A stretch of DNA of 64,000 nucleotides from Naegleria gruberi. Its lineage: Eukaryota. Position 1 is the first letter of the stretch. Every line of letters begins with the position of its first letter. The stretch lies in the NCBI GenBank assembly GCA_000004985.1, contig GG738847.1, one strand, 5' to 3'. The notes under the pieces were generated by a model, which saw nothing but the letters and a program-made list of their open reading frames with translations, searched no databases and was not told where the DNA came from. Positions 39,790 through 59,812 of the stretch are shown piece after piece. The position numbers were made by a program, and so were the translations under genes.

Positions 39790-41298
39790 TTACTTATTAG
39801 CAGTGACAGCACCAGTCAAGGCAATCATTGGATAGATACCAAGTACTGCAATAACAATGACCAATACACCAATAATAGCTACGGTGGCAGGATTGAGGAT
39901 TTTCAACAAGGTCTGAAGTCTTTGGGTATACTCTTTCAAAACCATTTGAGAAACATACTTCAAACCATCCTGAATGATAACATGTTTTCCACTCATAAAA
40001 CAAGCTTGAAGATAGGCTATTTCATAAGGTGAAAATATATGCTTTTGCTTTAACATGTAAGCTAAAACTTCATCTGCACCAGCTCCATATTTTGCCAAGC
40101 TGGCCATACTTTCCACCATGTGTTGAAGAATTGGGTTGGAACTGATGTTTGAGCAGACAATTAAGAGCTTGGAAGTGATTTGTTCCTTATCGAGTAATGA
40201 TAATGTATGCAAGAGCGTGGCCTTATCTTGTAAGAATGTTAAATTTCCAATAGGGGTGTGCATTCGAATGTATTGCCATTTCAAGAATGATTTGAAAGGT
40301 AAATACTCTGATGATATTGTTGAAGGAATAATATAAATAAGAGCCAACCAATGGTATTGAATAGATCTTACGAGATAATTTGTAAATTGTAAAAAGGATG
40401 GGACTGTAAGACCCATACTTTCAAAAATACCAATATTCTGTGGTAAAATCTTGGTCAATAACATTGTAATACCCAATAGACCAATTACTGTCATTATTGC
40501 AGGATAAATTAAAGCTCCAGTAATGGCTTTCTGGACCTTAATTTCCCTAGCAAATCTCTGTGCACAGTATAAGAGAATAGAGTCGAAATTTGAAAGGGCC
40601 TTTGCAAGAACTAGAGAATTATAATACCAACTGGGCAGATACATTTGTACTTTTGACAGTGTTGCAATAAATGTCTTGTAGTCAGTGCCACCAAGTGCAC
40701 TCTTTGGAATTTTAACTTGAGCAAGGAAGGGCAATAAATCTGAATCCAATTTTGAACTTCTCAACATGATATCGAAAATACTGACACTATTCACTGAGGG
40801 AGGAATTGAATTTACCAGAAATAGAATATTATTAAATGCTTGGAGTGAATCTGTAGAAAGTGAGCTGTTGCCTTGAAAGCTCCTGATCAGTTTGTTCAAC
40901 AAACCTGGATGAGAAGTTGGATCGGATTTTGATTTATCTGACGACATCTTTTTCTTTCCAGCAGTAATAGGCTTTGCTTCTGTCTTTCCTGCTGTTTGTG
41001 AATGTTCAATCCATTGTTGTTTCTCGAAAATTGCAATATTTTCCTCTGCAATTACATATTGATCATGATCCGAAACAAATCCTTGCACACCTTTCAATAA
41101 TAAATTATTATTCAATAAATATTGTAATATTAATTTTAGGCTTTTTGTTTTTTGCTTGTTATTTTCGTTCATTGTTTGTCCACTTGTTTGTCCATGTTGT
41201 TTATTGTCATCATCACATTGAATTGTTGTTGTATTGTTTTTCGGAAATAAATGGTCTGCAATTCTATCCATTCGGGAAATGTGTTGTGGTGACAACAT
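39790..41298 (-). CDS. gspF: Type II secretion system platform protein GspF/PilC family (T2SSF domains). Candidate mitochondrial T2SS (miT2SS) inner-membrane component encoded in the nucleus.
   Basis: 502 aa, ATG start, no intron seen. Conserved TM1 motif ALIYPAIMTVIGLLGITMLL...ILPQ. Second T2SSF cytoplasmic domain ...FSPYEIAYLQACFMSGKHVIIQDGLKYVSQMVLKEY. C-terminal TM3 LNPATVAIIGVLVIVIAVLGIYPMIALTGAV, as in bacterial GspF/PilC. About 150 aa of N-terminal extension before the first T2SSF domain. Confidence 0.75.
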   Translation of the reverse strand: MLSPQHISRMDRIADHLFPKNNTTTIQCDDDNKQHGQTSGQTMNENNKQKTKSLKLILQYLLNNNLLLKGVQGFVSDHDQYVIAEENIAIFEKQQWIEHSQTAGKTEAKPITAGKKKMSSDKSKSDPTSHPGLLNKLIRSFQGNSSLSTDSLQAFNNILFLVNSIPPSVNSVSIFDIMLRSSKLDSDLLPFLAQVKIPKSALGGTDYKTFIATLSKVQMYLPSWYYNSLVLAKALSNFDSILLYCAQRFAREIKVQKAITGALIYPAIMTVIGLLGITMLLTKILPQNIGIFESMGLTVPSFLQFTNYLVRSIQYHWLALIYIIPSTISSEYLPFKSFLKWQYIRMHTPIGNLTFLQDKATLLHTLSLLDKEQITSKLLIVCSNISSNPILQHMVESMASLAKYGAGADEVLAYMLKQKHIFSPYEIAYLQACFMSGKHVIIQDGLKYVSQMVLKEYTQRLQTLLKILNPATVAIIGVLVIVIAVLGIYPMIALTGAVTANK

Positions 41299-41645: not shown

Positions 41646-42317
41646 ATGAACAACAAACTCACTCTATTCACTTTCATACTTTTGCTCGTTATTCTCTTCT
41701 TGATAAACTTATCTGAACAATCCATATATTTACCAGGTGGTAAAGCAATTGAAACAGACAAGACAAAGATCAAAGAATTGATGGAATTCATGACTGTTAA
41801 ATTGATGGAAACTCCATATCAAGCAAAGATTCATGAAATTATTAAGGTTGAAAGACAAATTGTAAATGGTGTAAATTATTATATCACAATGCACGTTATT
41901 TCGAATGAAAAGATTAAACAATTGGTTGAAGCTAAGGTATTTGAACCAATGCATCACGTCCATGCTTTTGAATTGGTTTCTATTGACAAGAAGGATTCTA
42001 TCAAGTCCATATCAAACCAAGCATTAGAATCAATTCCAGGAGGAAGAAATAAGGAAACCGACTACTTGAAGATTACTGAATTGGTTAACTTTTTACAACA
42101 AAAACTCATTGAATCTGAAAATCAATCTGTTATTAGAAAGGTTATTTCCATTGAAAAGCAAGTCGTTGCTGGTATTAATTATTTCCTTGATGTGCATTTG
42201 GAATTTGCTGATGGAAAGGTCAAATTAATGCAAGCAACAATTCATGAACCACCAATCTTTGCTGGAAGTTCTTCATTGCACTTGAAATCACTCATTGAAA
42301 TTAATGGCAAAGAATAA
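41646..42317 (+). CDS. Secreted two-domain cystatin (family I25 cysteine protease inhibitor).
   Basis: Signal peptide MNNKLTLFTFILLLVILFLINLS. Two repeats, each with the conserved Gly (LPGG, IPGG) and a QxVxG motif (QIVNG, QVVAG). Confidence 0.8.
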   Translation: MNNKLTLFTFILLLVILFLINLSEQSIYLPGGKAIETDKTKIKELMEFMTVKLMETPYQAKIHEIIKVERQIVNGVNYYITMHVISNEKIKQLVEAKVFEPMHHVHAFELVSIDKKDSIKSISNQALESIPGGRNKETDYLKITELVNFLQQKLIESENQSVIRKVISIEKQVVAGINYFLDVHLEFADGKVKLMQATIHEPPIFAGSSSLHLKSLIEINGKE

Positions 42318-42443: not shown

Positions 42444-45400
42444 ATGGCGAACGAAGACTATGTGTTAAACTTTTCGATTCCTTTAAAACCTGAGGACTTG
42501 GAAATAGAGTCAGAGACCTTTTTCTATGTTTCTGATGATATGGATGTGAATTCATTCTCTACGACAGAAATTCACAGTTTAATTGATGGTACGTTTTATA
42601 TTTTAATCGGAATGTGTGATGATCATTGTTTTATTAGATATTGAAAACAAAATTTCGGATAAACCCTACTCTATCACAGATGGAAGCGTCTTTACAGCAA
42701 TCTACAGTTGCATTAAACATTTTTCTGCTCTTGATGATACTTGTAAACAACGTCTATTGGACAGTTTAGTCACAAATCTAAGCAGTCTGTTAACTAGCAT
42801 AACGAATCTGTTCATCAGATCATCAGCCGAAAGATCATATGGAGCAGATGATTTTGACAAAGTTGTTGCTATTCACAAGAATGCTTTGAAAATGTTCGTC
42901 TTCTGTGTTTTCTGGGGAATTTATAAATTCGAAAAGGAGGAAATGGAATCCAATAGTGAAGCAGAAAAGAAGAAGAAGAAATCCAAATCTAAAAAGAGAA
43001 GGAAAAGCGTTTTGGAAATGGATGATTGGAAAGAAAGAATACTGAAACTCTTGATTTCTGTCCTAGGACATAAATTAGACAAGTTGTGGAATAAGGAAGA
43101 CAAAATAGAGGACTCTTTTGTTTTGTTATTCTTCAGAGTTGCCTTCTCCTTTATGGAAAATCCAGAAAACCTAAAATCAGAAACTCTCAAACCAAAGATT
43201 ATTGAGCTTATCATTGCTGCCCTTCATGCACCATCAGGAAATATGCAAACAGTTATTTCTTCGATACTATCCATGATAATGTCGAACGCCAGTTGCTTAT
43301 CATGTATTATTGAAATGATAGAACACATTTGTGCTCCTTCATCTGATTCTGAGAATAGTGTTGGAAAGCTTTTTGTTAGCGAGTTATTCAGAGAGATAAG
43401 CAGATTAGAACAATCTGTCATGAAGTCAGATTCTGCAGGTACAAAAAACCTTGCTCAATTCATATCAGACTTGGGCGAAAGAGTTCCACTATCGATTCTT
43501 GTAAATATGAGCGTAGTGATATCCCATTTGGATGCAGAATGCTATCATATCAGAAATGCTGTTCTGCAAGCAATCACACACGTAATTTGTAAAATACTCA
43601 AGTCAACTTCAGAAGAAAATAACAGTAGAAATACCACAACAGAAAACATTACCAAGAAAACTCGTGATTCTCTGATTGATATTCTTGAAGAGAGAATGTA
43701 CGACGTAAATGCATACACACGTAGTAAGGTTCTTGCTTGTTGGGGAATGTTGTGCGAGGAAAAGGCTCTGCCTGTGAGAAAAATACCTCAAGTTTTGGAA
43801 ATGGTGTCTGGAAGATTATATGATAAGAGTGCTTTCGTCAGAAAGGCTGCAGTGCATTTCTTATCAACCATTCTGTCTAACAATCCTTATGGAAGTGTTC
43901 TGAAATTATCTATATTGGAAGAGAAATTGGCAGCTGCTAAAAAAACATATGATGATATTCCACAGTACTCTGAACCTGAGCTTGAACTTCTTCCAGAAGC
44001 AGAAAAAACTGATCTCAAGACAAAACAAGACAGGGCAAAAAGATATTGCATTTTGTTCAGAGAAGCAATTTCTTTTGTTAACAATTTGCATTCAACCTTT
44101 GAATCTGCCTATCAACTCTTAAATTCTAAAACCAGCTCTGATGTTTGTGAATGTATCAGCTTTATAGAGAAGTCTTTCATGTTTAAACTTGATATCTCCA
44201 CTCCTGCCCTTAAGAAAATATTTAAGCTTATCTGGTCTCCTGAACAGACTGTCAAAGATGCTGTATTGGAATCAATTCAAAATATCTTTATGAACCCTGA
44301 AAATTTGAAATCGACTGATGAGTGTATTGAAGTTGCACAACGATTTGCAGAGTTAGCTTTAGAGTGCAACCAATCTGAGCTTTCCTCTCTGGAAACTATT
44401 GTGAACTTGATTGTTTACAATAATAAGTTTTCAAAAAATCTGTTCTTGGCATTGTTCGAATTGACCGGGAAAAAACAACCAGAAAATCATGTAGTTGGAG
44501 CCCTTATTATAATTAATATGGTTGCTACAGCTAGACCAGAACCAATAAGAAAAAAGATTAAACTGTTAGTTACCGAGGTTATGGAAGAACGAGCTAAAGC
44601 TAGCTTCCTCATTGCAGTATATTCATGCCAAATTCTGCAAAGACTTGCTAAGGACGACTCTAGCGAAGCTTTTCAAGATGAAAAAAAGAAGAAGAGTAGC
44701 TCAAACGAGAATGATGACTGTCTGAAATATGTTGGTGGTAATCCAAGATACAGACTACCAGATAATCACAGTGTTTTCAAACTTTTGCTTGACCTCATCA
44801 TTGGAGATCCTAATTCACCACCGGAGCTATCCAAACTTTCTGAATGGATGACCATTACTGAATCTGCTTTGAATGCTATATTTTGCCTTGCAGAAGATCC
44901 AATACAGTTGACAACCCACATTATTAAGGAGGTTTCATTGAAAACTAATTTATCAGACCCAAACCAATCACGATCTGAGACGCTCACTGTTTCTCCTATT
45001 GAACTTACAAAGCTATTTTTTATTTTAGGACATTCTGCTCTAAAAGAATTAGTGCTGATTGAAGACCAATTCAAACAAGCCAAGAAATATAAACATAGAA
45101 TGGCCCTAGAGAAGGAACAAGCAGCTGCAGAAAAGAAGGAAAAACCAAAGAAAGGATCTAAAAAGAAGAGGGATAGACAAGAACTTGAGGAGGAGAATGA
45201 TAATGATACAACCGTTCTGGAAAGAGAATTAGGCTTAGATCCATCAAGTCTTGACGATCATGAACTTGAAGAAACATTTGAAAAGAAGGAACGAAATATC
45301 ATTACTGAGTCATCTTTATATGGGTCCTACTTGCCTTTGATTTTATCTATTTGCCATGATAGTGCCAATTTGTACAGATATTCTCCATTGAGAAAAACAG

Positions 45401-46781: not shown

Positions 46782-48203
46782 TTACTTTTTCTTATCAGAT
46801 TTCTTTTCCTTCTTTTCAGATTTCTTGTCAGATTTCTTTTCTTCAGACTTCTTTTCAGATTTCTTTTCTTCCTTCTTTTTATCGTCCTTCTTTTCAGATT
46901 TCTTTTCTGATTTCTTTTCTTCCTTCTTTTCGTCTTTTTTATGTTCTGATTTCTTTTCTTCCTTCTTTTCAGATTTCTTTTCGAGCTTATCAGACTTCTT
47001 CTCTTCCTTCTTTTCTACTTTCTTTTCATCCTTCTTCTCGTGTTTCTTTTCAGATTTCTTTTCTTCAGATTTCTTTTCAGATTTTTTCTCTACCTTTTCT
47101 TCTTTCTTTTCGGATTTCTTTTCTTCCTTTTTATGTTCAGATTTCTTGTCTTCTTTCTTTTTATCGTCCTTCTTTTCAGATTTCTTTTCTTCCTTCTTTC
47201 TATCGTCCTTCTTTTCAGATTTCTTTTCATGCTTATCAGACTTCTTTTCTTCCTTCTTTTCAGATTTCTTTTCAGATTTCTTTTCACTCTTCTTATGTGA
47301 TTTAGATACGTCTACAGACTTGTCAGACCAACCATCAGGTTTGAAAATGTTTTGAGAAATTTTAACAGAGAATTCTTCTCTTTCTTGGATTCTAGATTTC
47401 TTTTCTTCGAGTTTTTTTTGTTTTTCCTTCAAGGCATCATATTTTGGCATATCAAGCTTTTGTTCAATTCTATAGAATCCATCAATTGTTGAATTTCTCA
47501 GTCTATGGTCGTCGCTATCCTTAGTTGTAAATAATGGAGCAATAGATCCCTTAACACTATCTTCCCTAGAGAAAGCAAGTCCAGTATTTGAATCCAGCAT
47601 ATATTCATCTTGTTCTCCAAGAGATGAAATTCCTTCCAATTTCTTCTTAACTTCATCAACAGAAAATCCTTTTGGTATTTCAATAACATAAATTTTGCTA
47701 TTTTGTACATCTTCATATGTTATCTTTGGATCTTGTGGAGCATAGGTCATATTTGTTGGTAAAGTGAAGGTAAATTCAGAGTCTTCAATCATTGGCTCTT
47801 CAACAACAGGTTCAGGCTTTTCATCATCAGACATGTGTGTATCTTCTTGGACTTCATTGTCACTTTCATTATCAGATTCTTTTTTCTTTGTTTCTTCTTC
47901 ATCATCGGATTTGGAACTCTTTTTAGACTTTTTCTTCTTTGGTTCTTCATCTTCATTATCACTATCGGAAGACTTCTTTTTATCCTTCTTCTTTTCCTTC
48001 TTTTCCTTCTTTTCTTTCTTTTCCTTTTTCTCCTTTTTCTCCTTCTTTTCCTTCTTCTCCTTCTTATCCTTCTTTTTCTTTTCGGATTTCTTTGGAGATT
48101 CCTCTTTGGTTTCTTCCTCTGATTCCTCTATTGTTGTTGTTTTTGTTGTTGTTTCCTCTGCAGAGTCATCGTCGAGAAGTACTTGATGTTTTCTTTTGCT
48201 CAT
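46782..48203 (-). CDS. Nucleolar-type KKE/D-repeat protein (possibly RNA polymerase I subunit A34.5/RPA34-like). N- and C-terminal (S/E)EKK tandem repeats flank a small globular domain.
   Basis: ATG at 48203. The (KKEKKE)n and (KKSEKKEE)n arrays are encoded by about 24-nt tandem DNA repeats. The central segment IYVIEIPKGFSVDEVKK...SIAPLF weakly resembles the A34.5 core, which in yeast is followed by a K-rich tail. Confidence 0.5.
   Translation of the reverse strand: MSKRKHQVLLDDDSAEETTTKTTTIEESEEETKEESPKKSEKKKKDKKEKKEKKEKKEKKEKKEKKEKKEKKKDKKKSSDSDNEDEEPKKKKSKKSSKSDDEEETKKKESDNESDNEVQEDTHMSDDEKPEPVVEEPMIEDSEFTFTLPTNMTYAPQDPKITYEDVQNSKIYVIEIPKGFSVDEVKKKLEGISSLGEQDEYMLDSNTGLAFSREDSVKGSIAPLFTTKDSDDHRLRNSTIDGFYRIEQKLDMPKYDALKEKQKKLEEKKSRIQEREEFSVKISQNIFKPDGWSDKSVDVSKSHKKSEKKSEKKSEKKEEKKSDKHEKKSEKKDDRKKEEKKSEKKDDKKKEDKKSEHKKEEKKSEKKEEKVEKKSEKKSEEKKSEKKHEKKDEKKVEKKEEKKSDKLEKKSEKKEEKKSEHKKDEKKEEKKSEKKSEKKDDKKKEEKKSEKKSEEKKSDKKSEKKEKKSDKKK
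46790..47300. repeat. Tandem array of about 24-nt units (ttcttttcagatttcttttcttcc...) encoding the C-terminal SEKKEEKK repeats of the 46782..48203 gene. A second array of 15-24-nt units at about 47930-48110 encodes the N-terminal KKEKKE repeats.
   Basis: The periodicity is visible directly in the sequence. It also produces several spurious overlapping ORFs on both strands in the track. Confidence 0.85.
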
Positions 48204-50353: not shown

Positions 50354-51817
50354 TTGCATTATCAAAGATTGTCATTGACTCATGATGATGAGAATCTCTT
50401 CTCGTACGATTCATTAATTGTGCAGAGCTCTAAATGTTTGATGGTGGTCATATCTCGTTTTGAATCAAAACACTTACCAAACACAACAAAGAGTCTCAAA
50501 AAAAAGATGAATCAACAACAACAACCTTATCATTTGTATCTATTGAATCAAAAACCAAGAAAGAGTATTCTCAAGACTACTGCCTCACAAGTTGGTGCTC
50601 CAAAAGCTTCAAAGACTGCTACTTTTTTCAAAGAAGAGCAACGAAAGGAGCCAATTACAACTCTTCAAACAAAAACTCTTTCATTCGGAGCCAACAACAG
50701 TTCTCCTCCTCAACAAGAACAACAATCGGAATCTAGCAATATGAGCAAAAGCATTGGATTTTCATCACAAACTCCTGCTTTGAATGAGAATATTTCAAGT
50801 GGTAGTGTTTCCCAGTATTCATTAGCTTCAACCCAACAATTGGCACCATCGAAAACAATAGACTCTTCACCAACAACATTCTTTTACAAGCCATCACCGT
50901 CTTTACTCTTCCAATCTCTCATTTCTGACCTTCCATTGAAACCAGATGATGTTTCCAATCAAACAATAAGCAACAAGCCACTCGACTCCTTATCTTCCTT
51001 AATGGAAACTAATAATGGTCAATCGCTTTCCTCCAACAACAATATGAATCATCATTTAACTTTTAACACTCAATACTCCAATACAACTCTCCAAAATGAT
51101 TGCAACAATAATACAGATTCAACATGTCAACCTCTAGTATTTCAAAGAATGAACACAGTTTCATCTCTTCTCTCTCTTTTCCCTTCAATCCAAAAAGAAA
51201 CACAAGACACAAAAATGAGTCAACAACAAGTGGGCAGACATGTTGCTCCATCTTCTTCAGCAACAACCTCATCGGATAATCTTTCTCATCATTCGTTGAT
51301 TAATGGAGGTGTGGTAGGATTATCAAACCAATCTAACATGTTCAAAAAGGATTACTCTAAAGCTATAAGACAATTTCAAAATCAAACAACAAATCAATTT
51401 ATACAACGAACGATAGCCTCCAATCTAGATAATATTCAAAAGAATAGACCAAACATTGCTTCCGACAGATCCTTCCTTGAAGGCATGGAATTGGGAATGC
51501 AATTAAATGGTTTTTTGAATAAGCTTACACGTGATAGCAAGGACTACATCAAGGAATTACTCGATGACGTCTCCAGAAGAACAGCACAGGTTCCTCCAAC
51601 TACTATAGTGCACAATATTTCATCACCAACCATGCCAATCATTCCTACCACCACAACATCACCAATGCCAGTCACTTCACCAACCATTGATCCTTTCGTT
51701 CATTCCTCTGTGCAAAACATTATGCAAAAGGGTCAAGAACAAGCTTTCCAAACCCTCTTTGTTAGGAAATGTATGCAAGAGGCTGTTTCTAGAGCCATTC
51801 ACAACTCTCAACACTAA
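50354..51817 (+). CDS. Ser/Thr/Asn/Gln-rich low-complexity protein with a structured C-terminal domain of unknown function.
   Basis: Continuous 487-codon ORF. The caller's start is a TTG. The first ATGs are MVVISRF... and MNQQQQ... about 30-50 codons downstream. Confidence 0.45.
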   Translation: MHYQRLSLTHDDENLFSYDSLIVQSSKCLMVVISRFESKHLPNTTKSLKKKMNQQQQPYHLYLLNQKPRKSILKTTASQVGAPKASKTATFFKEEQRKEPITTLQTKTLSFGANNSSPPQQEQQSESSNMSKSIGFSSQTPALNENISSGSVSQYSLASTQQLAPSKTIDSSPTTFFYKPSPSLLFQSLISDLPLKPDDVSNQTISNKPLDSLSSLMETNNGQSLSSNNNMNHHLTFNTQYSNTTLQNDCNNNTDSTCQPLVFQRMNTVSSLLSLFPSIQKETQDTKMSQQQVGRHVAPSSSATTSSDNLSHHSLINGGVVGLSNQSNMFKKDYSKAIRQFQNQTTNQFIQRTIASNLDNIQKNRPNIASDRSFLEGMELGMQLNGFLNKLTRDSKDYIKELLDDVSRRTAQVPPTTIVHNISSPTMPIIPTTTTSPMPVTSPTIDPFVHSSVQNIMQKGQEQAFQTLFVRKCMQEAVSRAIHNSQH

Positions 51818-51937
51818 GTGCTACTCTCATGTAACTGTATAATAAACTCTAACTAGTACACTAACCAATGTATTTACAAAGACTGAATAATAAGACGAAT
51901 AAGAAGCTTGCAGTTTTGATGACCAAAGCATAAAAAA

Positions 51938-54900
51938 ATGACGTCATTGCAATCTTCATCATTGAGTGATGTTCTATTAGACGATGACACACAGAACAAC
52001 TCCTCGGAAAGATCGTTGGAAGATATTAAACTTTATAATTTTGAGGAAATTGGAGAACATTCTGTACAAATTAAAAAACGATTATATGTTACCGATTTTT
52101 TGAAAAAGACATCTGGATCGGAACAAGATGAAGGAAATTATTTTTCTAAATTATCTAAAATGTTGTCAATGATTTACAATACATACACAAACAAGGATCA
52201 ATCAGCAACAGAAAAAAGTCAAGACAATAATGTTAGACAATCTATCATTCAGAAATTTCATCAAAATTGGGCTATTGAATACACTTCTAATGGGCTATAT
52301 ACCCTAAAGGAGGCAACACTGAGATTGCTTAATGAAGATTTAGTTTCATTAGCAAGTGTGAAAGCTATGGAGTGGACTGACAGAAGAAAAATATTATCCT
52401 GTTCAGACGATTTAGTAGTAGTCACATGTTCAGACGATGGAAAGATTCGAGTCTACACACATGACCTTAAATTACTAATTTCAATTGATTTGAACTCTCT
52501 ATTGAATTTTGACAAGCATTCTATGAGTGGACCATCAATTTCAAATGTAAAAATTTCAAAGCCATCACTTAATTCGGAAAGGTAAGATTTTATTGAGAAT
52601 TTTTGAGTATTTAATCAAGGATAGATATGACATTTTGTTCCTATATGAGCAATCAGTTTTTGTTATTCCTCTAGTTAAGAATTCATCAAACTTCCAACTT
52701 TACAAGATGAAGAGCTATTCTGATCAAGTTTTATCTTTCGATATTTATAATGATAGCGAAAATGGAAGAATTATTTCTCTAGTTTTGGAACATGGTGAGC
52801 AGGAATCAATTTTCTTGAGTTATCCTGAATTGGAAGATTCTACTCTTGTTAAGGTTGATCAAAAACCAAAACGCACCAAATTATCAACATCCTTCTTGAG
52901 TAATAGTGATGATGTAATTGTAAATCCAAAACTTGTATTTTCTAAAGATGGATCACGTTGCGCCTTTTTATCAACAGCTAAAAAGCTCTACATTTACCGA
53001 GCTCCATTTCCATTTAAGAATGACTCCAGAATCCAACATATGAGTGAAATAGTAGATGTAGTAGAGTTTAATTGGTGGTCAACCTCATCAGTTATAATTT
53101 GTACAACCTCTAATCAATTATCAGTGTTGGATGTAACATCAAAATCAAACATTCTCGGAGATGGTGATGTAACAGAGGATGTGGAAGGAATGCCAATCAT
53201 TTCTAGTTCTCATGATGGAAAATTCTTCTTATTGGAATATGAACCTAATGTAAATCAACTCAAATTGGACCAACAATATCTCCTGCTTCAAGAGCAACAG
53301 AAGCAAATGCAAACATTGGAAAATGCTTCAGAAACTTCTTTATTTAGCGCCTTTGCCACCTTGCTGACGTTCCTTTTCCCAAAGGCCATTAAAGAACCAG
53401 AAGAGTTAAAGGAAGAAAACATGATTCCATCCACTTTATCACTTGCCTACAGACTTTATAGATTCTGTAAGAAGCAACCTGAATTAGAATTCAAGGAAAA
53501 GTTAGAACAAGGAGATTTGGAAGAGGCTTTATCATTAGCCAAATCATACTCCTTGGATTTAAATCAAGTTTACAAGAAAATGTGGAGAAGACAAGTCATT
53601 TCACTCTTTTCCATTGAAATACTCAACCAAGTCTCGGATAAGAATTGGATTATTGAGGAATGTATCCAGAGAGTAGCCACCAATGAAGAAAGCATGAGAG
53701 CTCTTCTCGAGTGTGGTCTCACCATAACAGAACAAATGTTAAAGGAATTAGATGACGAAGATATTGTACAAAAGCGTTTGAAGATCCTTTACTATTTAGA
53801 CAGATTGGATATGTACATGCAACTTGCAGATCAACAATATAAGGCTGACCAGTACAATTCTTTCAGAAATTGTGATCTATTCGAGTATGCCAAGGAAAAA
53901 GCCTCTATGAAAGATTTAGATTCCTTGAAGACAGTTTTATCATATGGGTTGCGAGTGGAAAAATTGAATCATCAAAGCAGATCTATTTCTCCACACCTTA
54001 TTCTAGACATTTTATCTTTTATACCAGAATCTCTGGATCCAAGACTATACGAGGATGCATTACCAGGAGTAGAATCTGGTAAATTGAAACGCTGGGATCA
54101 AATTAGTTTGAGCAGATTGTGTAATGATTTTTGTGAAGAAAAATTGCCAAAACTCGATACCATCTACCCAACATCACAGGAAATAACTGAGTGGTATATT
54201 GGTAGGGCTGAAACTATTGATGTTACCTCAGGTATGGTGAGCTATGCTGAGACGATACTGGCTATTGGTATTAACAAGAATGTTAATGGATTGGAAGAAA
54301 AACTGAATCAACTGAAATTCTTGTCCCAAATGATTTATAATAGAGGCAATCTGTTTAATTTGAATAAGCAACTTGTCTCCATCAAAGATTTTGAAGAAAA
54401 CATGTCCAACTATGACAAATTCAAATTGCTCATTAATAAGAATAGTGTAGATATTGTCTCCCAGCTTGTCAACAAGGGAATCAATTTCGTTGAACATTGT
54501 GAAGAGGAAAAGACTGGAAAAGACTCACTTATTTATCGATTTGTTGCTCACGAACTTGCACCATACAGCTTTGAGCAATGTTGCAAGATATTAACTGCTC
54601 AACAAAGAACAAGCTTATTGGGAGACAATGAGACCATTACTCTCTTAGCTATTGAATGTATTTACTCGGTCAAGAACTGGAAAGAAAATACTGAAAATAT
54701 TATTAGAGTATTGAATGCTCTCCCTACATCGAATATTCACGAAGAATTGGAAGACCAAGTCAATCAACTCAAGAGAAATACTCTAGCAGTTACCATTCTC
54801 TCTAAACAGTAAGTTTTCAATTTGTTCACCAACTTTAACATGTAAAAATAGTAACCTTTCTATTCAACTTTCATTGTCGATGGATTTGGAAGCTGAGGGA

Positions 54901-57900
54901 AATAATATTATGCAAGAACTTTTGCAAACAGGTATCAAGAGTGCAAAATCTGAGAGATCATACCAAACACTCTATAATGATTTGAATAATCTTCACAAGT
55001 CCTGCTTTGCTCACTTGTCTCTCAATGATATTTATCACCAATTTTTGAAAAACTGCTGCCTCTCTGGTCATGCCAATTTGGCCTATGATTACATTGTTGC
55101 CAAGTGTATTCTTCCTTTTGATGAAGCTGATGATGTCATATTTGAGGCTACTTCTGAGCTTTTCAACAGTTCTGTGCAACCAACTGATTCTTCCATAATG
55201 ATTGCCGATAAGTGTATCTCACTACACCAAAGCTTACAAAATGAGAAGCACATTTCCCTCTCACAAGAACATAAGTGGAAGAGAGAAAAAGATGTATTGG
55301 CAGCTTTTAGAATGCTTGACAAAATTTATACCAACTATCCTCCAGCATTATTCTTGAAAAAGCATAGCCCTGTTGAAGTAATCAAATACCTAATTGAAAA
55401 TAATACAACAGGAACTGAGGAAGAAAGATTGAAAGAATTTTATGAAATTTCCAAGTTATTGGGTGGAACTGAGCATGATAAGAAGGAAATTAAAAAGTTG
55501 GCTATTGAATCATCTTTGGAGCAGGCTGGCTCAGGAAATATTTCAGTAATCAAGACCCTTATGGAGCAAAATCATACTGGAGTTTACAAAATCTGCTCCA
55601 AGATGAGTATCGACAGCATGTGTGAAATTTCACATGAAGACCGCTTGAAATTTGTAAGTTTTATTCATATATTTATTTAATTTACAATCGAATATAGGCC
55701 TCATTTGCTATCCAAAATTGTGATCCTTCAGAACTTTCTGAAATGATCTCTAACTATGAACTAATTGAATCACAAGAGCTTTTCTCCTCTCGCTCATCCA
55801 TTAAACCATTGACAGAGTGTGTACTTCTTGCCCATCAAGAATTTGAGAAACTGACCAAGACTACCCCATTCAATGCAAACTTTGTAGGTTCATCTCCAAT
55901 TTATTCTAGCAGTTCGGAAGTATCATTCCTCTCCAAGTTTGGCATTTCTTCCAGCTCGTTAGAAATTGAACACCTTCTCAAATTGAAGGCTTCACATATT
56001 AGAAATTGTATAGCTACAGGTACTGATATTTCTCTAGAGTCACTCCTTGAATTTGCAAGCTTGACCCTACTGAATGGTCATATCATTTCATTTGTTTCTA
56101 TACTAATTCAAGTACCTATTGAACAAATTGACCAGGTCAAAAGGTTATTTGACTCTATTCTTTCTTCTCAACCTCGTGAAACCAAGTCAAGCATTGTTGA
56201 AAGAATGCTCAGGGTGTTTAACTTTTACTTTGGACTAAGACTTTTGTTATTGGAAAACCCAGATGGATTGGCTGACTATTATGACGAGCTCAGCATTGAA
56301 GAAACTATTGAAAAGGCTTTAGAATCTGATTTGAAAACCGAATTCAGCTCAATTGTAGATATTTTAACTCTTTATAACGGATTGTTGTACATATGTAGTC
56401 ATTTCAATGAGCTTTCTACTTTATCCAACAACAAGTTGAGCTGTTTGAAATTTATAACCGAGGAGGATTATAGAATCAAGTCTCTTACCTTACTCTCTCA
56501 AACAAGCAACAAGGATCACCTACAAACTGTATTACAAGTGGCCGATAAGTTAAAATTAGGAAAGGATGAATTTTACCTTTGCTACCTGGAAGCAGTCTTG
56601 AAAAATAAGGTCATTTCTCAAGAAGACAAAACTTTCATATTTGAGTTTGTTTCAAACATTAACCGTGAGAAGGTAACCAGCTTATTATTACAATTTATGG
56701 AACCTTCACTTGCCAAAGAGTATGACCTCACAAAGCTTTCCTTCTTGATGGACGTTCTTTTATCGTTAGGAGATGACCAATTCAGAGATCAGAAACTTGT
56801 TCTAGACACCCTCTGTAAAGAATGCAAGGGAATTACCAATAAGGAGTATCACGGAATTCTCAACTCTACTTCTCCAGATTCCCTATTTGACCTTTTACGT
56901 CCATACATTAATCACCAAAATGTAAATACCATATTGGATAGTGTTGAGAAAGTAGTTAAGAATAACGTAGAAAGACCAAGATTTTACCTTTTCATCACTG
57001 AATCATTGTTGACAAGTAACAGCATTGACAATAAGGAAAAACCAACACTGGCAGAAGAGTACATTTGCAAGTTGACCGAGAGTGATATTAGATCTATAGT
57101 AGAAAAGCTTTCATTTAACAATAGTTACAAACTTCCTCATGCTATTCGTATTTCAATCATGAAGAACTCCCTCAATGTTATAACTAATTCTGAGCTCGAA
57201 CATTTTGTTAGAGGCAATATTTTCAGAATGTTGGCAGCCAAGAGAGTATTCCAAAGAGAGGAATTGGATAATTTACTCGGATTATTGGACAAGTATTTTA
57301 AAAACCAAGTTGGATTGACTAGAGTACTTGCCAATATTGCCCTCTGTACTCGAAGCAAAGATATGGTAGAATCAGTTCTTACCGATCTTAAAGAAGAATA
57401 CTCTGATATCTTCTCTGAAAGTAAGACTCCTGGTGAACAACCTTCGTTCCTTTCTACTGACTCCACTAAATCCTATCTGGAAATAGTTGACCAAGTCATT
57501 CAATGCCTAGTGGATCATGCTGAAGAGCTCAGCAATGAAACTGAGACCAATGATGAGGAAGACTTTACACAAGAAGAGCTCGAGAATTTAACATATGAAG
57601 AGGATGGCATATGTTGGCCTCCAAACAATGCTAAGCTTGGATGCACTTACTTGCATATTATTTTGGGCTCTATTAAGGATCTCTCAGACTTGTTCAATAC
57701 CATCCTCTCACATATTGAGCATACCACTAAGAAGGAAGATGACTTCCCTGTAAGAACTAGAATTGCTCTCATTAGAATTATTAGAAAATATAAGAAACCA
57801 CAAACTCCTTCACCTGAAATCAAACAAGAACAAATTGTAATTCAAAAAGAAGATTCTCCAATCATTGGTGAAGTACAAGAACCTAAAGTAGAAACACCTT

Positions 57901-58766
57901 CAACATTAGCTGATCAAGATGAAGACATTCTGTTGGCCATCTATCAGACCAAGGATGCCATTGGTGAAAACTTCCCATTACAAAAGGATGTTTATGCACA
58001 AACACCAAAACCACCAACTGATGAATTCAAAAACATGTTCTCTTCCCTTTTATCATCTACCTCAAATGAAAAACAATTCAAGGCACTTTCATTTATCTTG
58101 AGAATATGGTTCAAGGAGAAGAGACAATGTCAATCATTTTTAGAAGCACTTCTAGTTGACCTTCTTAACACTCTTGTAGATAGAAATGCTAAGGAAGAAA
58201 CAGTGTTGGATATTACTAGAGAGGAAGTCGAACTTTTGAACGAAACGATTGCTAATGATTTCTTTGAAAAGCTATTCAATAAGGGAAGTTATTTCCTCTC
58301 TTTCAAGTTTGCTCTCCAAACTAACCACAAGAATCTTGCTACAAATGTTGTAGAAAAACTCAAATCTCTTGCAGAATCGAACTCAGATTGCTTGGATACA
58401 GAATATATGGGAGTGATCTTTGATGAGTGCATTTCAAAGAATTTAATTTCAAAGCTTTTATCAGACCCTATTATTACCTTACTTTTCAATTGTAAAAAGT
58501 TGAAGTTATCTGAAAATAGTGAAGCTCATTTGATTTCAGAATTGGCACAAAGTGGGCTTAAGAAAAAGGCCACCAATAACCAAACACTATTAGCATGTGA
58601 GTATTTACAAAGAAAGGTGTATGGTATGCACTCTAGATTATGTGATTTGAACAGTGGTCTATTCTTACTGCGAAGATATTTACAACAATGCCAAACTCAT
58701 GTCAAAATTGATAGAAATGCAAAGGAGCAGTGCAGCAGTACATTGAAGAAGCTTGTTACAAAATAA
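51938..58766 (+). CDS. NBAS: NBAS (neuroblastoma-amplified sequence / Sec39-domain) homologue of about 2232 aa. Four exons: 51938..52581, 52625..54808, 54852..55653, 55698..58766. Introns 43, 43 and 44 nt.
   Basis: Four consecutive plus-strand ORFs. Each ends within 1-3 codons after a GTAAG donor and resumes after a TAG acceptor. All phases were verified against the track coordinates. N-terminal WD/beta-propeller blades. YRLYRFCKKQPELEFKEKLEQGDLEEALSLAKSYSLDLNQVYKKMWRRQVISLF...ECIQRV...LLECGL is collinear with the human NBAS Sec39 region (YRLVSLRSTTPEELYQRKIESEEYEEALSLAHTYGLDTDLVYQRQWRKS...HECLERV...LLQYGL). Confidence 0.8.
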
Positions 58767-58802: not shown

Positions 58803-59812
58803 TTATTCTGAAGGTGATTCCAGAATAATGCTCATGTAATCAGCCATTTCCTTATTGTTAGATTTTTTGTACATTTGAATAATCTTATCCTTGGAATGTT
58901 TAGCAAGTTCCTTGTTTAACTTTTCATTGGAAGAAAATCCCAATGATTTGCAAGTCAAATATAATCCAAAAAGTGCTCTCATGTTTGTTTCACTGTTAAT
59001 ATTAAGTGATTGACTGTAATATTTTCTGGCATTTCTGTAATCTCCAGTGGTGTAAAGAATATCTGCATATTTCAAATGGAAAATATAATTTGCTGGATTA
59101 CTCAAAATCATTTCCTCAATACAGAAAAGAGCATTCTTATATTCAGCATTAGCAAGATAAATATCTGCCAATTCTTCATAAGCTTCCAAATCATTTTGAT
59201 ATATTTTCAAATATTCATTGAGTGCTGTAATACTTTCCTCGATTAAATTTTGCGATCTGAAAATTGCAACCTTTCTCTTGTAAGAGAGAGCATCAGTTGG
59301 ATGATCTTTAAGAATGTCATCATAGATTTGTAATGCTGTTTCGAATTGGTTTTGTGCCTCCATCAAAAGTCCTTCCAATCTTTTTACTCTGAGAGACTCT
59401 CCGAATTGCCCTTGAAGACTAACTAAACATTCCTATATTGTTGTTCCAATCACAATAATTATTTATAATAAATATTATTATTAACAATGTATTATAATAA
59501 ATTAAATAATAATAATAAATTATTACAAGATGATATTTTGTTAAAACATACTTGGGCCACAGTAATATTATTCAAATCAGCAGCTGCTCTCAATAAATGT
59601 TCATAATAATCCCAAACATTGTTTCCAAGTTTTGAGAAGGCTTCACTCTTATGATTATAGAACAAATGTTTTCCGCACTTGAGCACTAAATCAGGTCTCC
59701 TCAGTGAAGATCTCTCACAAACTTCCTTTATAATATCAATACATAGAGATGCTGATGGTTTTCCAACTTGTTTTAATTCCTTCTCGAGTTCGAGCAAGCT
59801 TGGTGTTGTCAT
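58803..59812 (-). CDS. EMC2: ER membrane protein complex subunit 2 (EMC2/TTC35) TPR protein. Exons 59812..59552 and 59432..58803, joined by an intron of about 119 nt (GTATGT...ATAG).
   Basis: 296 codons after splicing. SLRVKRLEGLLMEAQNQFETALQIYDDILKDHPTDALSYKRKVAIFRSQ...NALFCIEEMILSNPANY...NMRALFGLYLT is collinear with human EMC2 ([48 protein letters not shown]...AAFCLEELMMTNPHNH...NMRALFGLYMS). Confidence 0.85.

What the first reader, a model, noticed from the sequence alone, without database searches (positions are those of the whole stretch)
39790..41298. Bacterial-type GspF/PilC T2SS platform protein encoded among intron-containing eukaryotic genes; candidate mitochondrial T2SS component
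This 502-aa ORF has the hallmarks of the T2SSF family. It carries the near-invariant TM1 motif (ALIYPAIMTVIGLLG...PQ), a second cytoplasmic T2SSF domain, and the characteristic C-terminal helix (LNPATVAIIGVLVIVIAVLGIYPMIALTGAV).

It is flanked on the same strand by Prp4, which has a spliceosomal-type protein architecture and an acidic low-complexity insert. Neighbouring genes (condensin, EMC2, NBAS) contain spliceosomal introns. The ORF shares the AT-rich codon usage of its neighbours, so it is not a bacterial contaminant.

In eukaryotes, GspF homologues are described only as parts of the mitochondrial T2SS-derived apparatus in a few protist lineages (Heterolobosea such as Naegleria, jakobids, malawimonads, Hemimastigophora). 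Its presence points to the lineage and implies that partner genes (GspD, GspE, GspG, Gcp proteins) exist elsewhere in the genome. The ~150-aa N-terminal extension is not obviously a canonical presequence.
Basis: partly seen in the sequence, partly recalled or inferred. Interest (0 to 1): 0.85.

Follow-up and report, generated by a model that had tools for sequence, protein, structure and literature searches.

The report
Known Naegleria mitochondrial GspF gene
This is the nuclear gene for GspF, the inner-membrane platform of the bacterial-type secretion machine kept in Naegleria gruberi mitochondria; it was published in 2021, but its N-terminus carries a peroxisome-type (PTS2-like) signal, shared with five partner protein families, that I could not find reported.

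Summary
An uninterrupted 502-aa ORF lies at 39790..41298 on the minus strand. It passes Pfam T2SSF (47.5 bits against a cut-off of 25.2), aligns to bacterial GspF profiles from TM1 to the C-terminus (hhalign probability 99.1 %), and its model matches EpsF, OutF and PilC structures.

The context is eukaryotic. A 44-nt spliceosomal intron is proven in a MutS gene in the same window, codon usage matches the neighbours, and the sequence groups inside the Naegleria clade.

The sequence is residue-for-residue Naegleria gruberi XP_002682534.1, named GspF in Horváthová et al. 2021 (PMC8134430) and detected there in the mitochondrial proteome.

One side observation appears unreported in the searchable literature. 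Residues 9–17 (RMDRIADHL, followed by FP) belong to a PTS2-like nonapeptide that heads GspE, GspEL, GspEN2A, GspEN2B, GspF and GspG in five protist lineages. My broad pattern hits 51 of 59 of these proteins (0.6 expected by chance) and 0 of 41 GspD-type proteins. The same taxa carry three extra paralogues of Pex7, the PTS2 receptor (Gcp1–3). That suggests a testable receptor–signal pair.

The parts
39790..41298 (-). GspF coding sequence: 502 aa, no intron; stop codon at 39790..39792.
   Evidence: ORF listing. Pfam T2SSF 47.5 bits. TIGR02120 GspF alignment over aa 226-496. Identical to N. gruberi XP_002682534.1 'GspF'.
40924..41298 (-). Eukaryote-specific N-terminal extension (aa 1-125). It is poorly conserved and mostly disordered, and has no bacterial counterpart.
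   Evidence: Alignment A1 is conserved only from about aa 126. AF2 pLDDT is below 50 for aa 21-43 and 67-128. The paper's targeting predictors find no presequence.
41242..41274 (-). PTS2-like nonapeptide RMDRIADHL (aa 9-17) followed by F-P (aa 18-19).
   Evidence: Short helix at aa 9-17 in the model. One mismatch (Met at position 2) to the extended PTS2 consensus quoted in PMC4585086. The same motif occurs in 51 of 59 GspE/EL/EN2A/EN2B/F/G proteins and 0 of 41 GspD-type proteins. It is the only hit in the six-frame translation of the window.
41110..41166 (-). Second helix in the extension (aa 45-63, KQKTKSLKLILQYLLNNNL), conserved among Naegleria and Willaertia only.
   Evidence: AF2 helix at 45-63 with block pLDDT 76. 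Alignment A1 columns 101-125. The paper's TMHMM counts 4 TMDs for N. gruberi and 3 for the other species.
40525..40857 (-). First matrix-facing T2SSF helical domain (about aa 148-258). Its N-terminal half is divergent.
   Evidence: Best Pfam stretch is aa 214-286, matching profile positions 52-125 of 125. hhalign coverage starts at aa 210. SLQAFNNILFLVNS is invariant among the eukaryotic sequences. pLDDT is 50-64 for aa 148-220. Foldseek matches the EpsF, OutF and PilC cytoplasmic domains.
40447..40515 (-). TM1 (aa 262-284), containing the invariant Y265 and P266; P286 follows just after.
   Evidence: Kyte-Doolittle peak 2.19. Invariant columns in A2. Aligned to bacterial TM1.
40309..40365 (-). 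TM2 (about aa 312-330, IQYHWLALIYIIPSTISSE), weakly hydrophobic.
   Evidence: Kyte-Doolittle local maximum 1.09 at aa 326. Aligned to bacterial TM2 by hhalign. AF2 helices at 301-315 and 317-328.
39904..40266 (-). Second matrix-facing T2SSF helical domain (about aa 345-465).
   Evidence: Second Pfam stretch. hhalign and TIGR02120 alignments. Six helices with pLDDT 87-94.
39811..39891 (-). TM3 (aa 470-496) with conserved P470, G477 and P490.
   Evidence: Kyte-Doolittle peak 2.83. Invariant or near-invariant columns. hhalign runs to the bacterial C-terminus.

Best explanation
The ORF is the intron-less nuclear gene for GspF of Naegleria gruberi. GspF is the single polytopic inner-membrane 'assembly platform' subunit of the mitochondrial type II secretion system (miT2SS).

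Shown here:
- It is a divergent but genuine T2SSF-family protein, with three transmembrane helices and two helical-bundle domains in the bacterial order.
- It sits in an ordinary eukaryotic chromosome region.
- It is the orthologue of the published miT2SS GspF proteins.

Taken from the literature (PMC8134430):
- The Gefionella orthologue self-associates and binds the pseudopilin GspG in bacterial two-hybrid assays.

Inferred by homology:
- The protein is made in the cytosol, imported by means of its ~125-aa extension, and inserted in the inner membrane with both helical domains facing the matrix.
- There it couples the GspE ATPase to extraction and polymerisation of GspG into a pseudopilus, which pushes an unknown cargo through the GspD pore in the outer membrane.

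Inferred from my motif analysis: the extension's conserved nonapeptide (aa 9-17) is the functional part of the targeting or assembly signal.
For: Family:
- Pfam T2SSF scores above its cut-off.
- GspF is the best NCBIfam model (66.9 bits, against 41.4 for XpsF and 35.6 for PilC), aligned over aa 226-496 to profile positions 130-399 of 401.
- hhalign of the eukaryotic against the bacterial alignment gives probability 99.1 %, E = 4e-19, over aa 210-501.
- The AF2 core has pLDDT 82-94.
- The six best Foldseek PDB hits are all PilC, EpsF or OutF, with TM 0.59-0.72 on the cytoplasmic-domain targets.

Orthology:
- N. fowleri, N. lovaniensis and Willaertia match at E < 1e-210, and the Andalucia 'mitochondrial T2SS GspF' at 1e-132, while the best bacterial hit is only 6e-8.
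- The NJ tree places the window sequence inside the Naegleria clade of a eukaryote-only group.

Identity with the published NgGspF.

Eukaryotic context:
- Neighbours include kinesin, MutS, Pumilio, Prp4, condensin Cnd1 and EMC2.
- One intron is proven.
- Codon usage matches the neighbours.

Literature:
- Mitochondrial proteome detection.
- GoGspF dimerisation and interaction with GoGspG1.
Against: - The score is far below the NCBIfam equivalog cut-off for bacterial GspF (66.9 against 424 bits), so functional equivalence is not guaranteed.
- The N-terminal half of the first cytoplasmic domain is only weakly modelled (pLDDT 50-64) and is not covered by the profile alignments.
- TM2 is weakly hydrophobic.
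- No secretion activity, cargo or in-cell localisation of GspF itself has been shown. GspF could not be expressed in yeast.
- GspC, GspL and GspM, the partners of bacterial GspF, are missing in eukaryotes.
- Targeting predictors see no presequence.
- The conserved N-terminal motif resembles a peroxisomal signal rather than a mitochondrial one.
Confidence: 0.9

Rival explanations
1. The conserved N-terminal nonapeptide is a working PTS2-type signal. GspF, and the other Gsp proteins that carry the motif, would then be recognised in the cytosol by a Pex7-family WD40 receptor: either the miT2SS-specific paralogues Gcp1-3 or Pex7 itself. The machine's biogenesis or location would therefore be tied to the peroxisomal import pathway, through dual targeting or a dedicated receptor route, rather than to a plain Tom20-read presequence.
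For: - The published PTS2 consensus, which was not tuned on these data, hits 31 of 59 GspE/EL/EN2A/EN2B/F/G proteins against 2.8 expected, across all six families, and 0 of 41 GspD/DL/DN1-3 proteins.
- Sixteen of 51 motif instances fit the extended Petriv consensus exactly and 27 miss at one position. Arg is invariant at S1, X3 is always L/I/V, S3 is always H or Q, and no proline lies inside the nonapeptide.
- The motif forms a helix followed by a disordered stretch, as described for PTS2.
- Presequences normally have no sequence consensus.
- Gcp1-3 are Pex7-related paralogues restricted to miT2SS-bearing taxa.
- NgGspEL, with the perfect PTS2 RLTSLLSHL, fell in the peroxisomal proteome cluster.
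- The window motif contains two Asp residues, which is atypical for a presequence.
Against: - All five core Gsp proteins, GspF included, were found in the mitochondrial cluster and not the peroxisomal one.
- NgGspD, NgGspE and NgGspG1 reached mitochondria in yeast, and the NgGspG1 extension reached them in T. brucei. Both hosts lack Gcp1-3, so a Gcp receptor is not strictly needed.
- The motif also contains the Tom20-binding pattern φxxφφ, and in jakobids and malawimonads it lies inside predicted presequences.
- The window's own nonapeptide has Met at position 2, outside the consensus.
- Counts within a family are not independent, because the members are homologous.
Confidence: 0.35
2. The gene is a bacterial contaminant or a recent horizontal transfer, not an old eukaryotic gene.
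For: The family is otherwise bacterial, and the ORF has no intron.
Against: - The gene is flanked within 230-350 nt by Prp4 and a cystatin gene, on a contig full of eukaryotic genes.
- A spliceosomal intron is proven in the same window.
- GC3 and RSCU match the neighbours.
- GC is flat across the window.
- The closest relatives are all eukaryotic, and bacterial identity is about 20 %.
- The paper states that it verified the nuclear location of Gsp genes by FISH (methods seen).
Confidence: 0.01
3. The gene is a decaying relic with no current function.
For: - The partner subunits GspC, GspL and GspM are missing.
- The protein scores far below the bacterial equivalog cut-off.
- No cargo is known.
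Against: - The ORF is intact.
- More than 120 columns are invariant across ten eukaryotic sequences that span heteroloboseans, a jakobid and a malawimonad.
- The protein was detected by mass spectrometry.
- The orthologue retains the interaction with GspG.
Confidence: 0.04
4. It is the platform protein of a type IV pilus, competence or Tad-like system rather than of a T2SS-type machine.
For: PilC, ComGB and HofC models also match, and the best PDB sequence and fold hit is a PilC model.
Against: - GspF is the best-scoring NCBIfam model by about 25-30 bits.
- The published phylogenies and the co-occurring GspD, GspE and GspG set point to a T2SS origin.
- PilC ranks first in the PDB only because no full-length GspF chain matched.
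Confidence: 0.05

Closest known systems
Naegleria gruberi GspF (XP_002682534.1, curated model) of the mitochondrial T2SS, Horváthová et al. 2021, Nat Commun 12:2947 (PMC8134430)
   Same: It is the same gene. The sequence is identical from MLSPQHISRMDRIADHLFPK through all ~400 residues held in the supplement text.
   Different: Nothing in the gene itself differs. The proteome table gives 51.4 kDa for the RefSeq entry, whereas the uninterrupted ORF gives 56.1 kDa. The RefSeq model is therefore probably shorter than the true ORF; the paper marks its version with an asterisk, which I take to mean a curated model. The exact 502-aa sequence is absent from the protein collection.
Bacterial GspF/EpsF/PulF/OutF (T2SS inner-membrane platform; PF00482, TIGR02120)
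   Same: - Same order of two helical cytoplasmic domains and three TM helices.
- Invariant Y-P in TM1 and Pro in TM3.
- Profile-profile probability 99.1 %.
- Cytoplasmic-domain fold match with TM 0.59-0.72.
   Different: - About 20 % identity, and 66.9 bits against the 424-bit equivalog cut-off.
- A ~125-aa N-terminal extension.
- A divergent first half of domain 1.
- Nuclear-encoded and imported.
- The partners GspC, GspL and GspM are absent.
PilC (type IVa pilus platform protein; 3jc8, 2whn)
   Same: Same superfamily and fold. It is the best PDB hit by both sequence and structure.
   Different: It scores lower than the GspF models (35.6 against 66.9 bits), and the system context is T2SS-like rather than pilus-like.
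PTS2 / Pex7 peroxisomal import signal
   Same: - An N-terminal helical nonapeptide, R-φ-x-x-φ-φ-x-H/Q-φ, with no internal proline, followed by a disordered linker.
- 16 of 51 instances fit the extended consensus exactly.
- Pex7 paralogues (Gcp1-3) co-occur with the miT2SS.
   Different: - The carriers were found in mitochondria, not peroxisomes.
- There is an extra conserved Pro at +2 (32 of 51).
- I, V or M often replaces L/A at the last position.
- The window copy has Met at position 2.
- No binding has been tested.

Membership tests
T2SSF / GspF-PilC platform proteins (Pfam PF00482) | Significant match to the T2SSF profile above the Pfam gathering score. | tested here: met
   47.5 bits against 25.2, E = 2.2e-12.
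T2SSF / GspF-PilC platform proteins (Pfam PF00482) | Two T2SSF repeats (two cytoplasmic helical domains). | tested here: met
   Two Pfam stretches. hhalign and TIGR02120 alignments run through both domains from aa 210/226 to 496/501. The first half of domain 1 is divergent and weakly modelled.
T2SSF / GspF-PilC platform proteins (Pfam PF00482) | Three transmembrane helices at the conserved positions, with conserved Pro residues. | tested here: met
   TM1 has a Kyte-Doolittle peak of 2.19 and TM3 of 2.83. TM2 is weak at 1.09 but aligns to bacterial TM2. Y265, P266, P286 and P470 are invariant. The paper's TMHMM gives 3-4 TMDs.
T2SSF / GspF-PilC platform proteins (Pfam PF00482) | Helical-bundle fold of the cytoplasmic domain, as in EpsF, OutF and PilC. 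| tested here: met
   Foldseek ranks 1-6 are all members of this family, with probability 0.97-1.0, TM 0.59-0.72 on the domain targets and rmsd 3.2-4.8 Å. E-values are weak, 0.012-0.87.
Bacterial GspF equivalog (NCBIfam TIGR02120) | Score above the curated equivalog cut-off of 424 bits. | tested here: not met
   66.9 bits. It is a distant homologue and not an equivalog by NCBI's criterion.
Bacterial GspF equivalog (NCBIfam TIGR02120) | Physical coupling to GspE, GspL and GspG. | not testable with these tools
   From the literature only: GoGspF self-interacts and binds GoGspG1 in BACTH, and GspL is absent from eukaryotes.
Eukaryotic miT2SS GspF (Horváthová et al. 2021) | Orthology with the published eukaryotic GspF set. 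| tested here: met
   Identical to NgGspF. E values of 1e-132 to 1e-230 to the Andalucia, Malawimonas and Naegleria proteins. It lies within the eukaryote-only clade.
Eukaryotic miT2SS GspF (Horváthová et al. 2021) | Nuclear gene in a eukaryotic genomic context. | tested here: met
   Eukaryotic neighbours, one proven intron, and matching codon usage.
Eukaryotic miT2SS GspF (Horváthová et al. 2021) | N-terminal extension relative to the bacterial proteins. | tested here: met
   About 125-147 aa precede the conserved core.
Eukaryotic miT2SS GspF (Horváthová et al. 2021) | Mitochondrial localisation. | not testable with these tools
   [quoted passage not shown] There is no microscopy for GspF.
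Eukaryotic miT2SS GspF (Horváthová et al. 2021) | Co-occurrence with GspD, GspE, GspG and Gcp genes in the genome. | not testable with these tools
   None lies in the 64-kb window: there are no other T2SS Pfam domains, and six unannotated neighbours are absent from the paper's tables. The rest of the genome is not available here. The paper reports the full set.
PTS2 (Pex7-dependent peroxisomal targeting signal) | Nonapeptide fitting (R/K)(L/V/I)X5(H/Q)(L/A), or the extended form R(L/V/I/Q)xx(L/V/I/H)(L/S/G/A)x(H/Q)(L/A). | tested here: not met
   The window GspF nonapeptide RMDRIADHL fails at position 2 (Met), one mismatch in six defined positions. Orthologues fit, for example N. lovaniensis RLKRVMAHL and P0001 RLHRLANHL. 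Across the six families, 31 of 59 proteins fit the classical form.
PTS2 (Pex7-dependent peroxisomal targeting signal) | Near the N-terminus, helical, no internal proline, bulky hydrophobic X3, and an unstructured linker downstream. | tested here: met
   The motif is at aa 9-17, where the AF2 model has a helix. X3 is Ile13 and there is no Pro inside. pLDDT is below 50 for aa 21-43.
PTS2 (Pex7-dependent peroxisomal targeting signal) | Binding by Pex7 (or a paralogue) and import into peroxisomes. | not testable with these tools
   No assay is available here. The literature places GspF in mitochondria, so I do not file it as a PTS2 protein. The resemblance is a lead.

The most novel reading that the evidence does not exclude
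The inner-membrane and matrix-side subunits of the mitochondrial T2SS (GspE, GspEL, GspEN2A, GspEN2B, GspF and GspG, plus Naegleria Gcp6) share an ancient, PTS2-derived N-terminal signal, R-φ-x-x-φ-φ-x-H/Q-φ-x-P. This signal is read by the three Pex7-like WD40 paralogues (Gcp1-3) that occur only in miT2SS-bearing eukaryotes. That would amount to a dedicated receptor-signal system, borrowed from peroxisomal import, that sorts or assembles the machine. It would explain both the unexplained Gcp1-3 proteins and the 'peroxisome link' noted in 2021. It would also give a sequence tag for finding further components or cargo. I found no mention of this motif in the two miT2SS papers, their supplements, or the searchable library.
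Probability: 0.35. Interest if true: 0.7.

Novelty: already known. Interest (0 to 1): 0.4.

Why it matters
The gene itself adds nothing new. It is the published N. gruberi GspF, one of four core parts of a bacterial secretion machine that survived in the mitochondria of a few deep-branching protists and was probably present in the last eukaryotic common ancestor.

The N-terminal signal may matter more. The function, cargo and biogenesis of the miT2SS are open questions, and so is the role of the Pex7-like proteins Gcp1-3 that co-occur with it. Six unrelated or only distantly related miT2SS protein families carry a conserved PTS2-like nonapeptide, and the same taxa carry three extra PTS2-receptor paralogues. 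Together these give a concrete, cheap hypothesis: receptor-peptide binding, testable by mutagenesis of three residues. They also give a search pattern for mining these genomes for further components or substrates.

Tried and rejected
- The single-sequence search against PDB chains gave only a marginal PilC hit (E = 0.25). The profile search improved it to 2e-4. The structure-based search was needed for a clear answer.
- The exact-sequence look-up found nothing. I think this is because the RefSeq model differs from the true ORF, not because the gene is new.
- I looked for partner T2SS or Gcp genes next to GspF. No T2SS domains appear in 30 other ORFs, and six Pfam-less neighbours are absent from the paper's Gsp/Gcp and proteome tables. 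The system is not clustered.
- The condensin intron candidate (42589..42637) is canonical but not required, because an in-frame ATG lies at 42619. The EMC2 splice did not extend the Pfam domain (start moves from profile position 23 to 21). I therefore rest the intron claim on MutS.
- I considered that the N-terminal motif is simply the Tom20-binding φxxφφ core of a presequence. This is not excluded. It does not explain the invariant Arg, the H/Q at position 8, the Pro at +2, or conservation across six families and five lineages, given that presequences have no consensus.
Gcp1-4 and Gcp10-16 were not examined for the motif.
Full report
**1. The observation.** The window holds an uninterrupted ATG-to-stop ORF of 502 aa at 39790..41298, on the minus strand. 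The TM1 segment ALIYPAIMTVIGLLG…PQ is at aa 262–286. The very hydrophobic C-terminal helix is at aa 468–498 (Kyte-Doolittle peaks 2.19 and 2.83). Pfam T2SSF (PF00482) matches at 47.5 bits against a gathering score of 25.2, in two stretches. Among NCBIfam models the best is GspF (TIGR02120, 66.9 bits, aa 226–496 on profile positions 130–399 of 401). It scores ahead of XpsF, PilC, ComGB and HofC but far below the 424-bit equivalog cut-off. The ORF is therefore a real but divergent member of the family.

**2. Anatomy.** An alignment of ten eukaryotic homologues is poorly conserved up to about residue 125 and very strongly conserved afterwards, with more than 120 invariant columns. A profile–profile comparison of that alignment with eight bacterial homologues gives 99.1 % probability (E = 4e-19) over aa 210–501 against bacterial positions 112–399 of 399. 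That region covers the end of the first cytoplasmic domain, TM1, TM2, the whole second cytoplasmic domain and TM3. Y265, P266, P286 and P470 are invariant across eukaryotes and bacteria.

An AlphaFold2 model built on 26 sequences has mean pLDDT 70. The region from about aa 220 to 500 scores 82–94, aa 148–220 scores 50–64, and the extension is disordered apart from two short helices at 9–17 and 45–63. The six best Foldseek matches in the PDB are all from this family: the PilC model 3jc8, the Vibrio EpsF cytoplasmic domain, Dickeya OutF and the Thermus PilC N-domain. Probabilities are 0.97–1.0, TM-scores on the domain targets are 0.59–0.72, and E-values are weak. TM2 is only weakly hydrophobic (1.09) but aligns with bacterial TM2.

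**3. Context.** The window is ordinary eukaryotic DNA with about 33–35 % GC and no compositional island. Other ORFs encode kinesin, a MutS/MSH-type protein, a Pumilio protein, a protein kinase, GST, OTU, RGS, LRR and WD40 proteins, Prp4 (230 nt downstream on the same strand), a double cystatin (348 nt upstream, divergent), condensin subunit Cnd1, EMC2 and a KNTC1/NBAS-like ARM protein.

I tested the intron claim directly. The MutS ORF ends inside domain I at a stop codon that is part of a GTAAGT donor. Removing 44 nt (2192..2235, minus strand, GTAAGT…AAAG) joins it in frame to the next ORF. This raises MutS_I from 85 bits (1–86 of 113) to 101.9 bits (1–111 of 113) and brings in MutS_II. EMC2 has a good candidate intron of 119 nt with 13 % GC (59433..59551). 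Condensin has one of 49 nt (42589..42637). Neither is proven. GspF has GC3 of 0.30, like its neighbours (0.30–0.32), and RSCU correlations of 0.73–0.84 with them.

**4. Relatives and identity.** The best database hits are all eukaryotic:
- an environmental Naegleria-like protein at 92 % identity;
- N. fowleri and N. lovaniensis at 70 %;
- Willaertia magna, Acrasis kona and Malawimonas;
- the Andalucia godoyi protein annotated 'mitochondrial T2SS F-like protein (GspF)', at E = 1e-132.

The best bacterial hit has E = 6e-8 and about 20 % identity. In a neighbour-joining tree on 347 columns the window sequence sits inside the Naegleria clade, and all eukaryotic sequences form one group on a long branch away from the bacterial ones. 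The bacterial sample there is small, only eight sequences.

The decisive result came from the literature. Supplementary Data 1 and 2 of Horváthová et al. 2021 (PMC8134430) list 'Naegleria gruberi XP_002682534.1*' as GspF, with a sequence identical to the window ORF over all ~400 residues held. So the window is N. gruberi, and the gene is the published NgGspF. The paper reports the following:
- All five core Gsp proteins were found in the mitochondrial cluster, and not the peroxisomal cluster, of a fractionation proteome.
- GspF could not be expressed in yeast.
- Gefionella GspF self-associates and binds GspG1 in two-hybrid assays.
- Targeting predictors fail on the heterolobosean proteins, which have the longest extensions.

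A 2023 review adds that GspF is the only assembly-platform subunit found in eukaryotes.

**5. How it most likely works.** By homology, supported by the published interaction data, GspF is a three-pass inner-membrane protein whose two helical domains face the matrix. There it links the GspE ATPase to the extraction of GspG pseudopilins from the membrane and their polymerisation, which pushes cargo through the GspD pore. Family membership, topology, orthology and nuclear location are shown here. Organelle location comes from the literature. The mechanism is inferred. The cargo is unknown.

**6. A side observation that seems new.** In the alignment, the only conserved element of the extension is a short motif at aa 9–19, RMDRIADHLFP. 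It coincides with the predicted helix at 9–17.

Reading Supplementary Data 1, I found the same motif near the N-terminus of GspE, GspEL, GspEN2A, GspEN2B and GspG as well as GspF. It occurs in jakobids, malawimonads, heteroloboseans and both hemimastigotes. Examples are NgGspE RLTTLLRHLSP, MjGspE RIQRLLSHLGP, AgGspG RIKAILSHMNP, Spironema GspG RLVALTRHLFP and PkGspF RVNFLLSHLFP.

This is the shape of a PTS2, the Pex7-dependent peroxisomal signal. The consensus is (R/K)(L/V/I)X5(H/Q)(L/A), extended to R(L/V/I/Q)xx(L/V/I/H)(L/S/G/A)x(H/Q)(L/A). It forms a two-turn helix with a bulky central residue and no proline, followed by an unstructured linker (PMC3178647 and PMC4585086).

Quantitatively:
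- The classical consensus, which was not tuned on these data, hits 31 of 59 proteins of the six families (2.8 expected from shuffles) and 0 of 41 GspD/GspDL/GspDN1–3 proteins.
- The broader pattern, which I derived from these sequences, hits 51 of 59 (0.57 expected) and 0 of 41.
- With the trailing x-P it hits 33 of 59 (0.04 expected).

Among the 51 instances:
- Arg is invariant at position 1.
- Position 5 is always L, I or V.
- Position 8 is His in 40 and Gln in 11.
- No instance contains a proline, and Pro sits at +2 in 32.
- Sixteen fit the extended consensus exactly and 27 miss at one position. The window's copy is one of those 27, with Met at position 2.

Further checks:
- Eleven of 13 N-terminally complete GspF homologues from the independent database search carry the motif. 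None of the eight bacterial ones does.
- In the six-frame translation of the whole 64-kb window, the motif plus x-P occurs once, in GspF itself.
- Gcp5, Gcp7 and Gcp8 lack it. Gcp9 has a shorter φ-F-P element. Naegleria Gcp6 has the motif.
- Counts within a family are not independent, because the members are homologous. The weight of the argument lies in recurrence across six families, of which GspE-type, GspF and GspG are mutually unrelated, and in conservation within otherwise unalignable extensions.

**7. Why that could matter.** The 2021 paper reports that three of the co-occurring proteins, Gcp1–3, are WD40 paralogues most closely related to Pex7, the PTS2 receptor. They are found only in miT2SS-bearing taxa, which also keep Pex7 itself. 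The paper mentions PTS2 once, only to define Pex7. It ran only a PTS1 predictor. Neither its main text, its supplements nor the 2023 review mentions a PTS2-like motif on Gsp proteins. Full-text searches for PTS2 or Pex7 together with T2SS, Naegleria or miT2SS found nothing further. The natural hypothesis is that Gcp1–3 read this motif.

Points in favour:
- Presequences have no sequence consensus, whereas PTS2 does.
- NgGspEL, with a perfect PTS2, fell in the peroxisomal cluster.
- The window motif contains two acidic residues, which are rare in presequences.

Points against:
- The core Gsp proteins are mitochondrial by proteomics.
- N. gruberi GspD, GspE and GspG1 reach mitochondria in yeast, and the NgGspG1 extension does so in T. 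brucei. Both hosts lack Gcp1–3.
- The motif also contains the Tom20-binding φxxφφ pattern. One point mutation can turn a PTS2 into a mitochondrial signal, so it could be a presequence core of unusual conservation.

I put the receptor–signal reading at about 0.35. I cannot exclude that it has been reported in a journal outside the searchable library.

**8. Verdict.** As a finding it is ordinary: it re-discovers a published gene. The residual interest lies in the PTS2-like tag on its N-terminus and in the testable link to the Pex7-like Gcp proteins.

Noticed in passing
window 41242..41274 (-), aa 9-19 of GspF; also the N-termini of GspE, GspEL, GspEN2A, GspEN2B and GspG in Supplementary Data 1 of PMC8134430: A conserved PTS2-like nonapeptide, R-φ-x-x-φ-φ-x-H/Q-φ, usually followed by x-P. 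It is shared by six miT2SS protein families in five protist lineages and is absent from the GspD-type outer-membrane and IMS proteins. The same taxa have three Pex7-like paralogues (Gcp1-3). I found no report of it in the searchable literature.
   Followed up: yes
window 39790..41298 (-): The paper's proteome table gives 51.36 kDa for RefSeq XP_002682534.1, but the uninterrupted ORF gives 56.1 kDa. The exact 502-aa sequence is not in the 15-billion-protein collection. The RefSeq model is probably shorter towards the C-terminus, perhaps through a falsely predicted intron. Alignment with N. fowleri, N. lovaniensis and Willaertia supports the full ORF to its ...TANK end.
   Followed up: partly
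window 41110..41166 (-), aa 45-63 of GspF: A second, moderately hydrophobic helix (KSLKLILQYLLNNNLLL) lies in the N-terminal extension. It is conserved only among Naegleria and Willaertia. It may be why TMHMM counts 4 TMDs for N. gruberi GspF and 3 for the other species. Its function is unknown.
   Followed up: no
window 2192..2235 (-): A 44-nt spliceosomal intron (GTAAGT...AAAG) in an MSH-type MutS gene. The ORF's apparent stop codon lies inside the donor site. Splicing gives the junction RVEQT|ETVEE and completes MutS domain I (1-111 of 113) and domain II.
   Followed up: yes
window 50354..58766 (+): Five consecutive plus-strand ORFs (487, 215, 739, 268 and 1007 aa) are separated by 7-120 nt. 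One carries a KNTC1-type ARM domain. The splice sites were not worked out.
   Followed up: no
window 41646..42317 (+): A 223-aa protein with two cystatin domains and a hydrophobic N-terminus that looks like a signal peptide. It is transcribed divergently from GspF, 348 nt away.
   Followed up: no
P0001 / P0027 (JGI and ENA metagenome contigs): An environmental GspF that is 92 % identical to the window protein over the core, with a perfect PTS2-type motif (RLHRLANHL-FP). It points to an unsequenced close relative of N. gruberi in public metagenomes.
   Followed up: no
Supplementary Data 1 of PMC8134430 (Gcp9 and Gcp6 rows): Gcp9 orthologues share a shorter N-terminal element ending in φ-F-P (RRISRIVFPH, VMNIMFPRV, LAEFFFPRV) that resembles the tail of the Gsp motif. 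NgGcp9 was in the peroxisomal cluster. Naegleria Gcp6, which was in the mitochondrial cluster, carries the full motif (RRLGVLARHV).
   Followed up: partly
window 46782..48203 (-): A 473-aa ORF antisense to the end of, and just downstream of, the condensin gene. Its N-terminus is an extremely Lys/Glu-rich repeat (KKEKKEKKEKKEKK...). It has no Pfam match.
   Followed up: no
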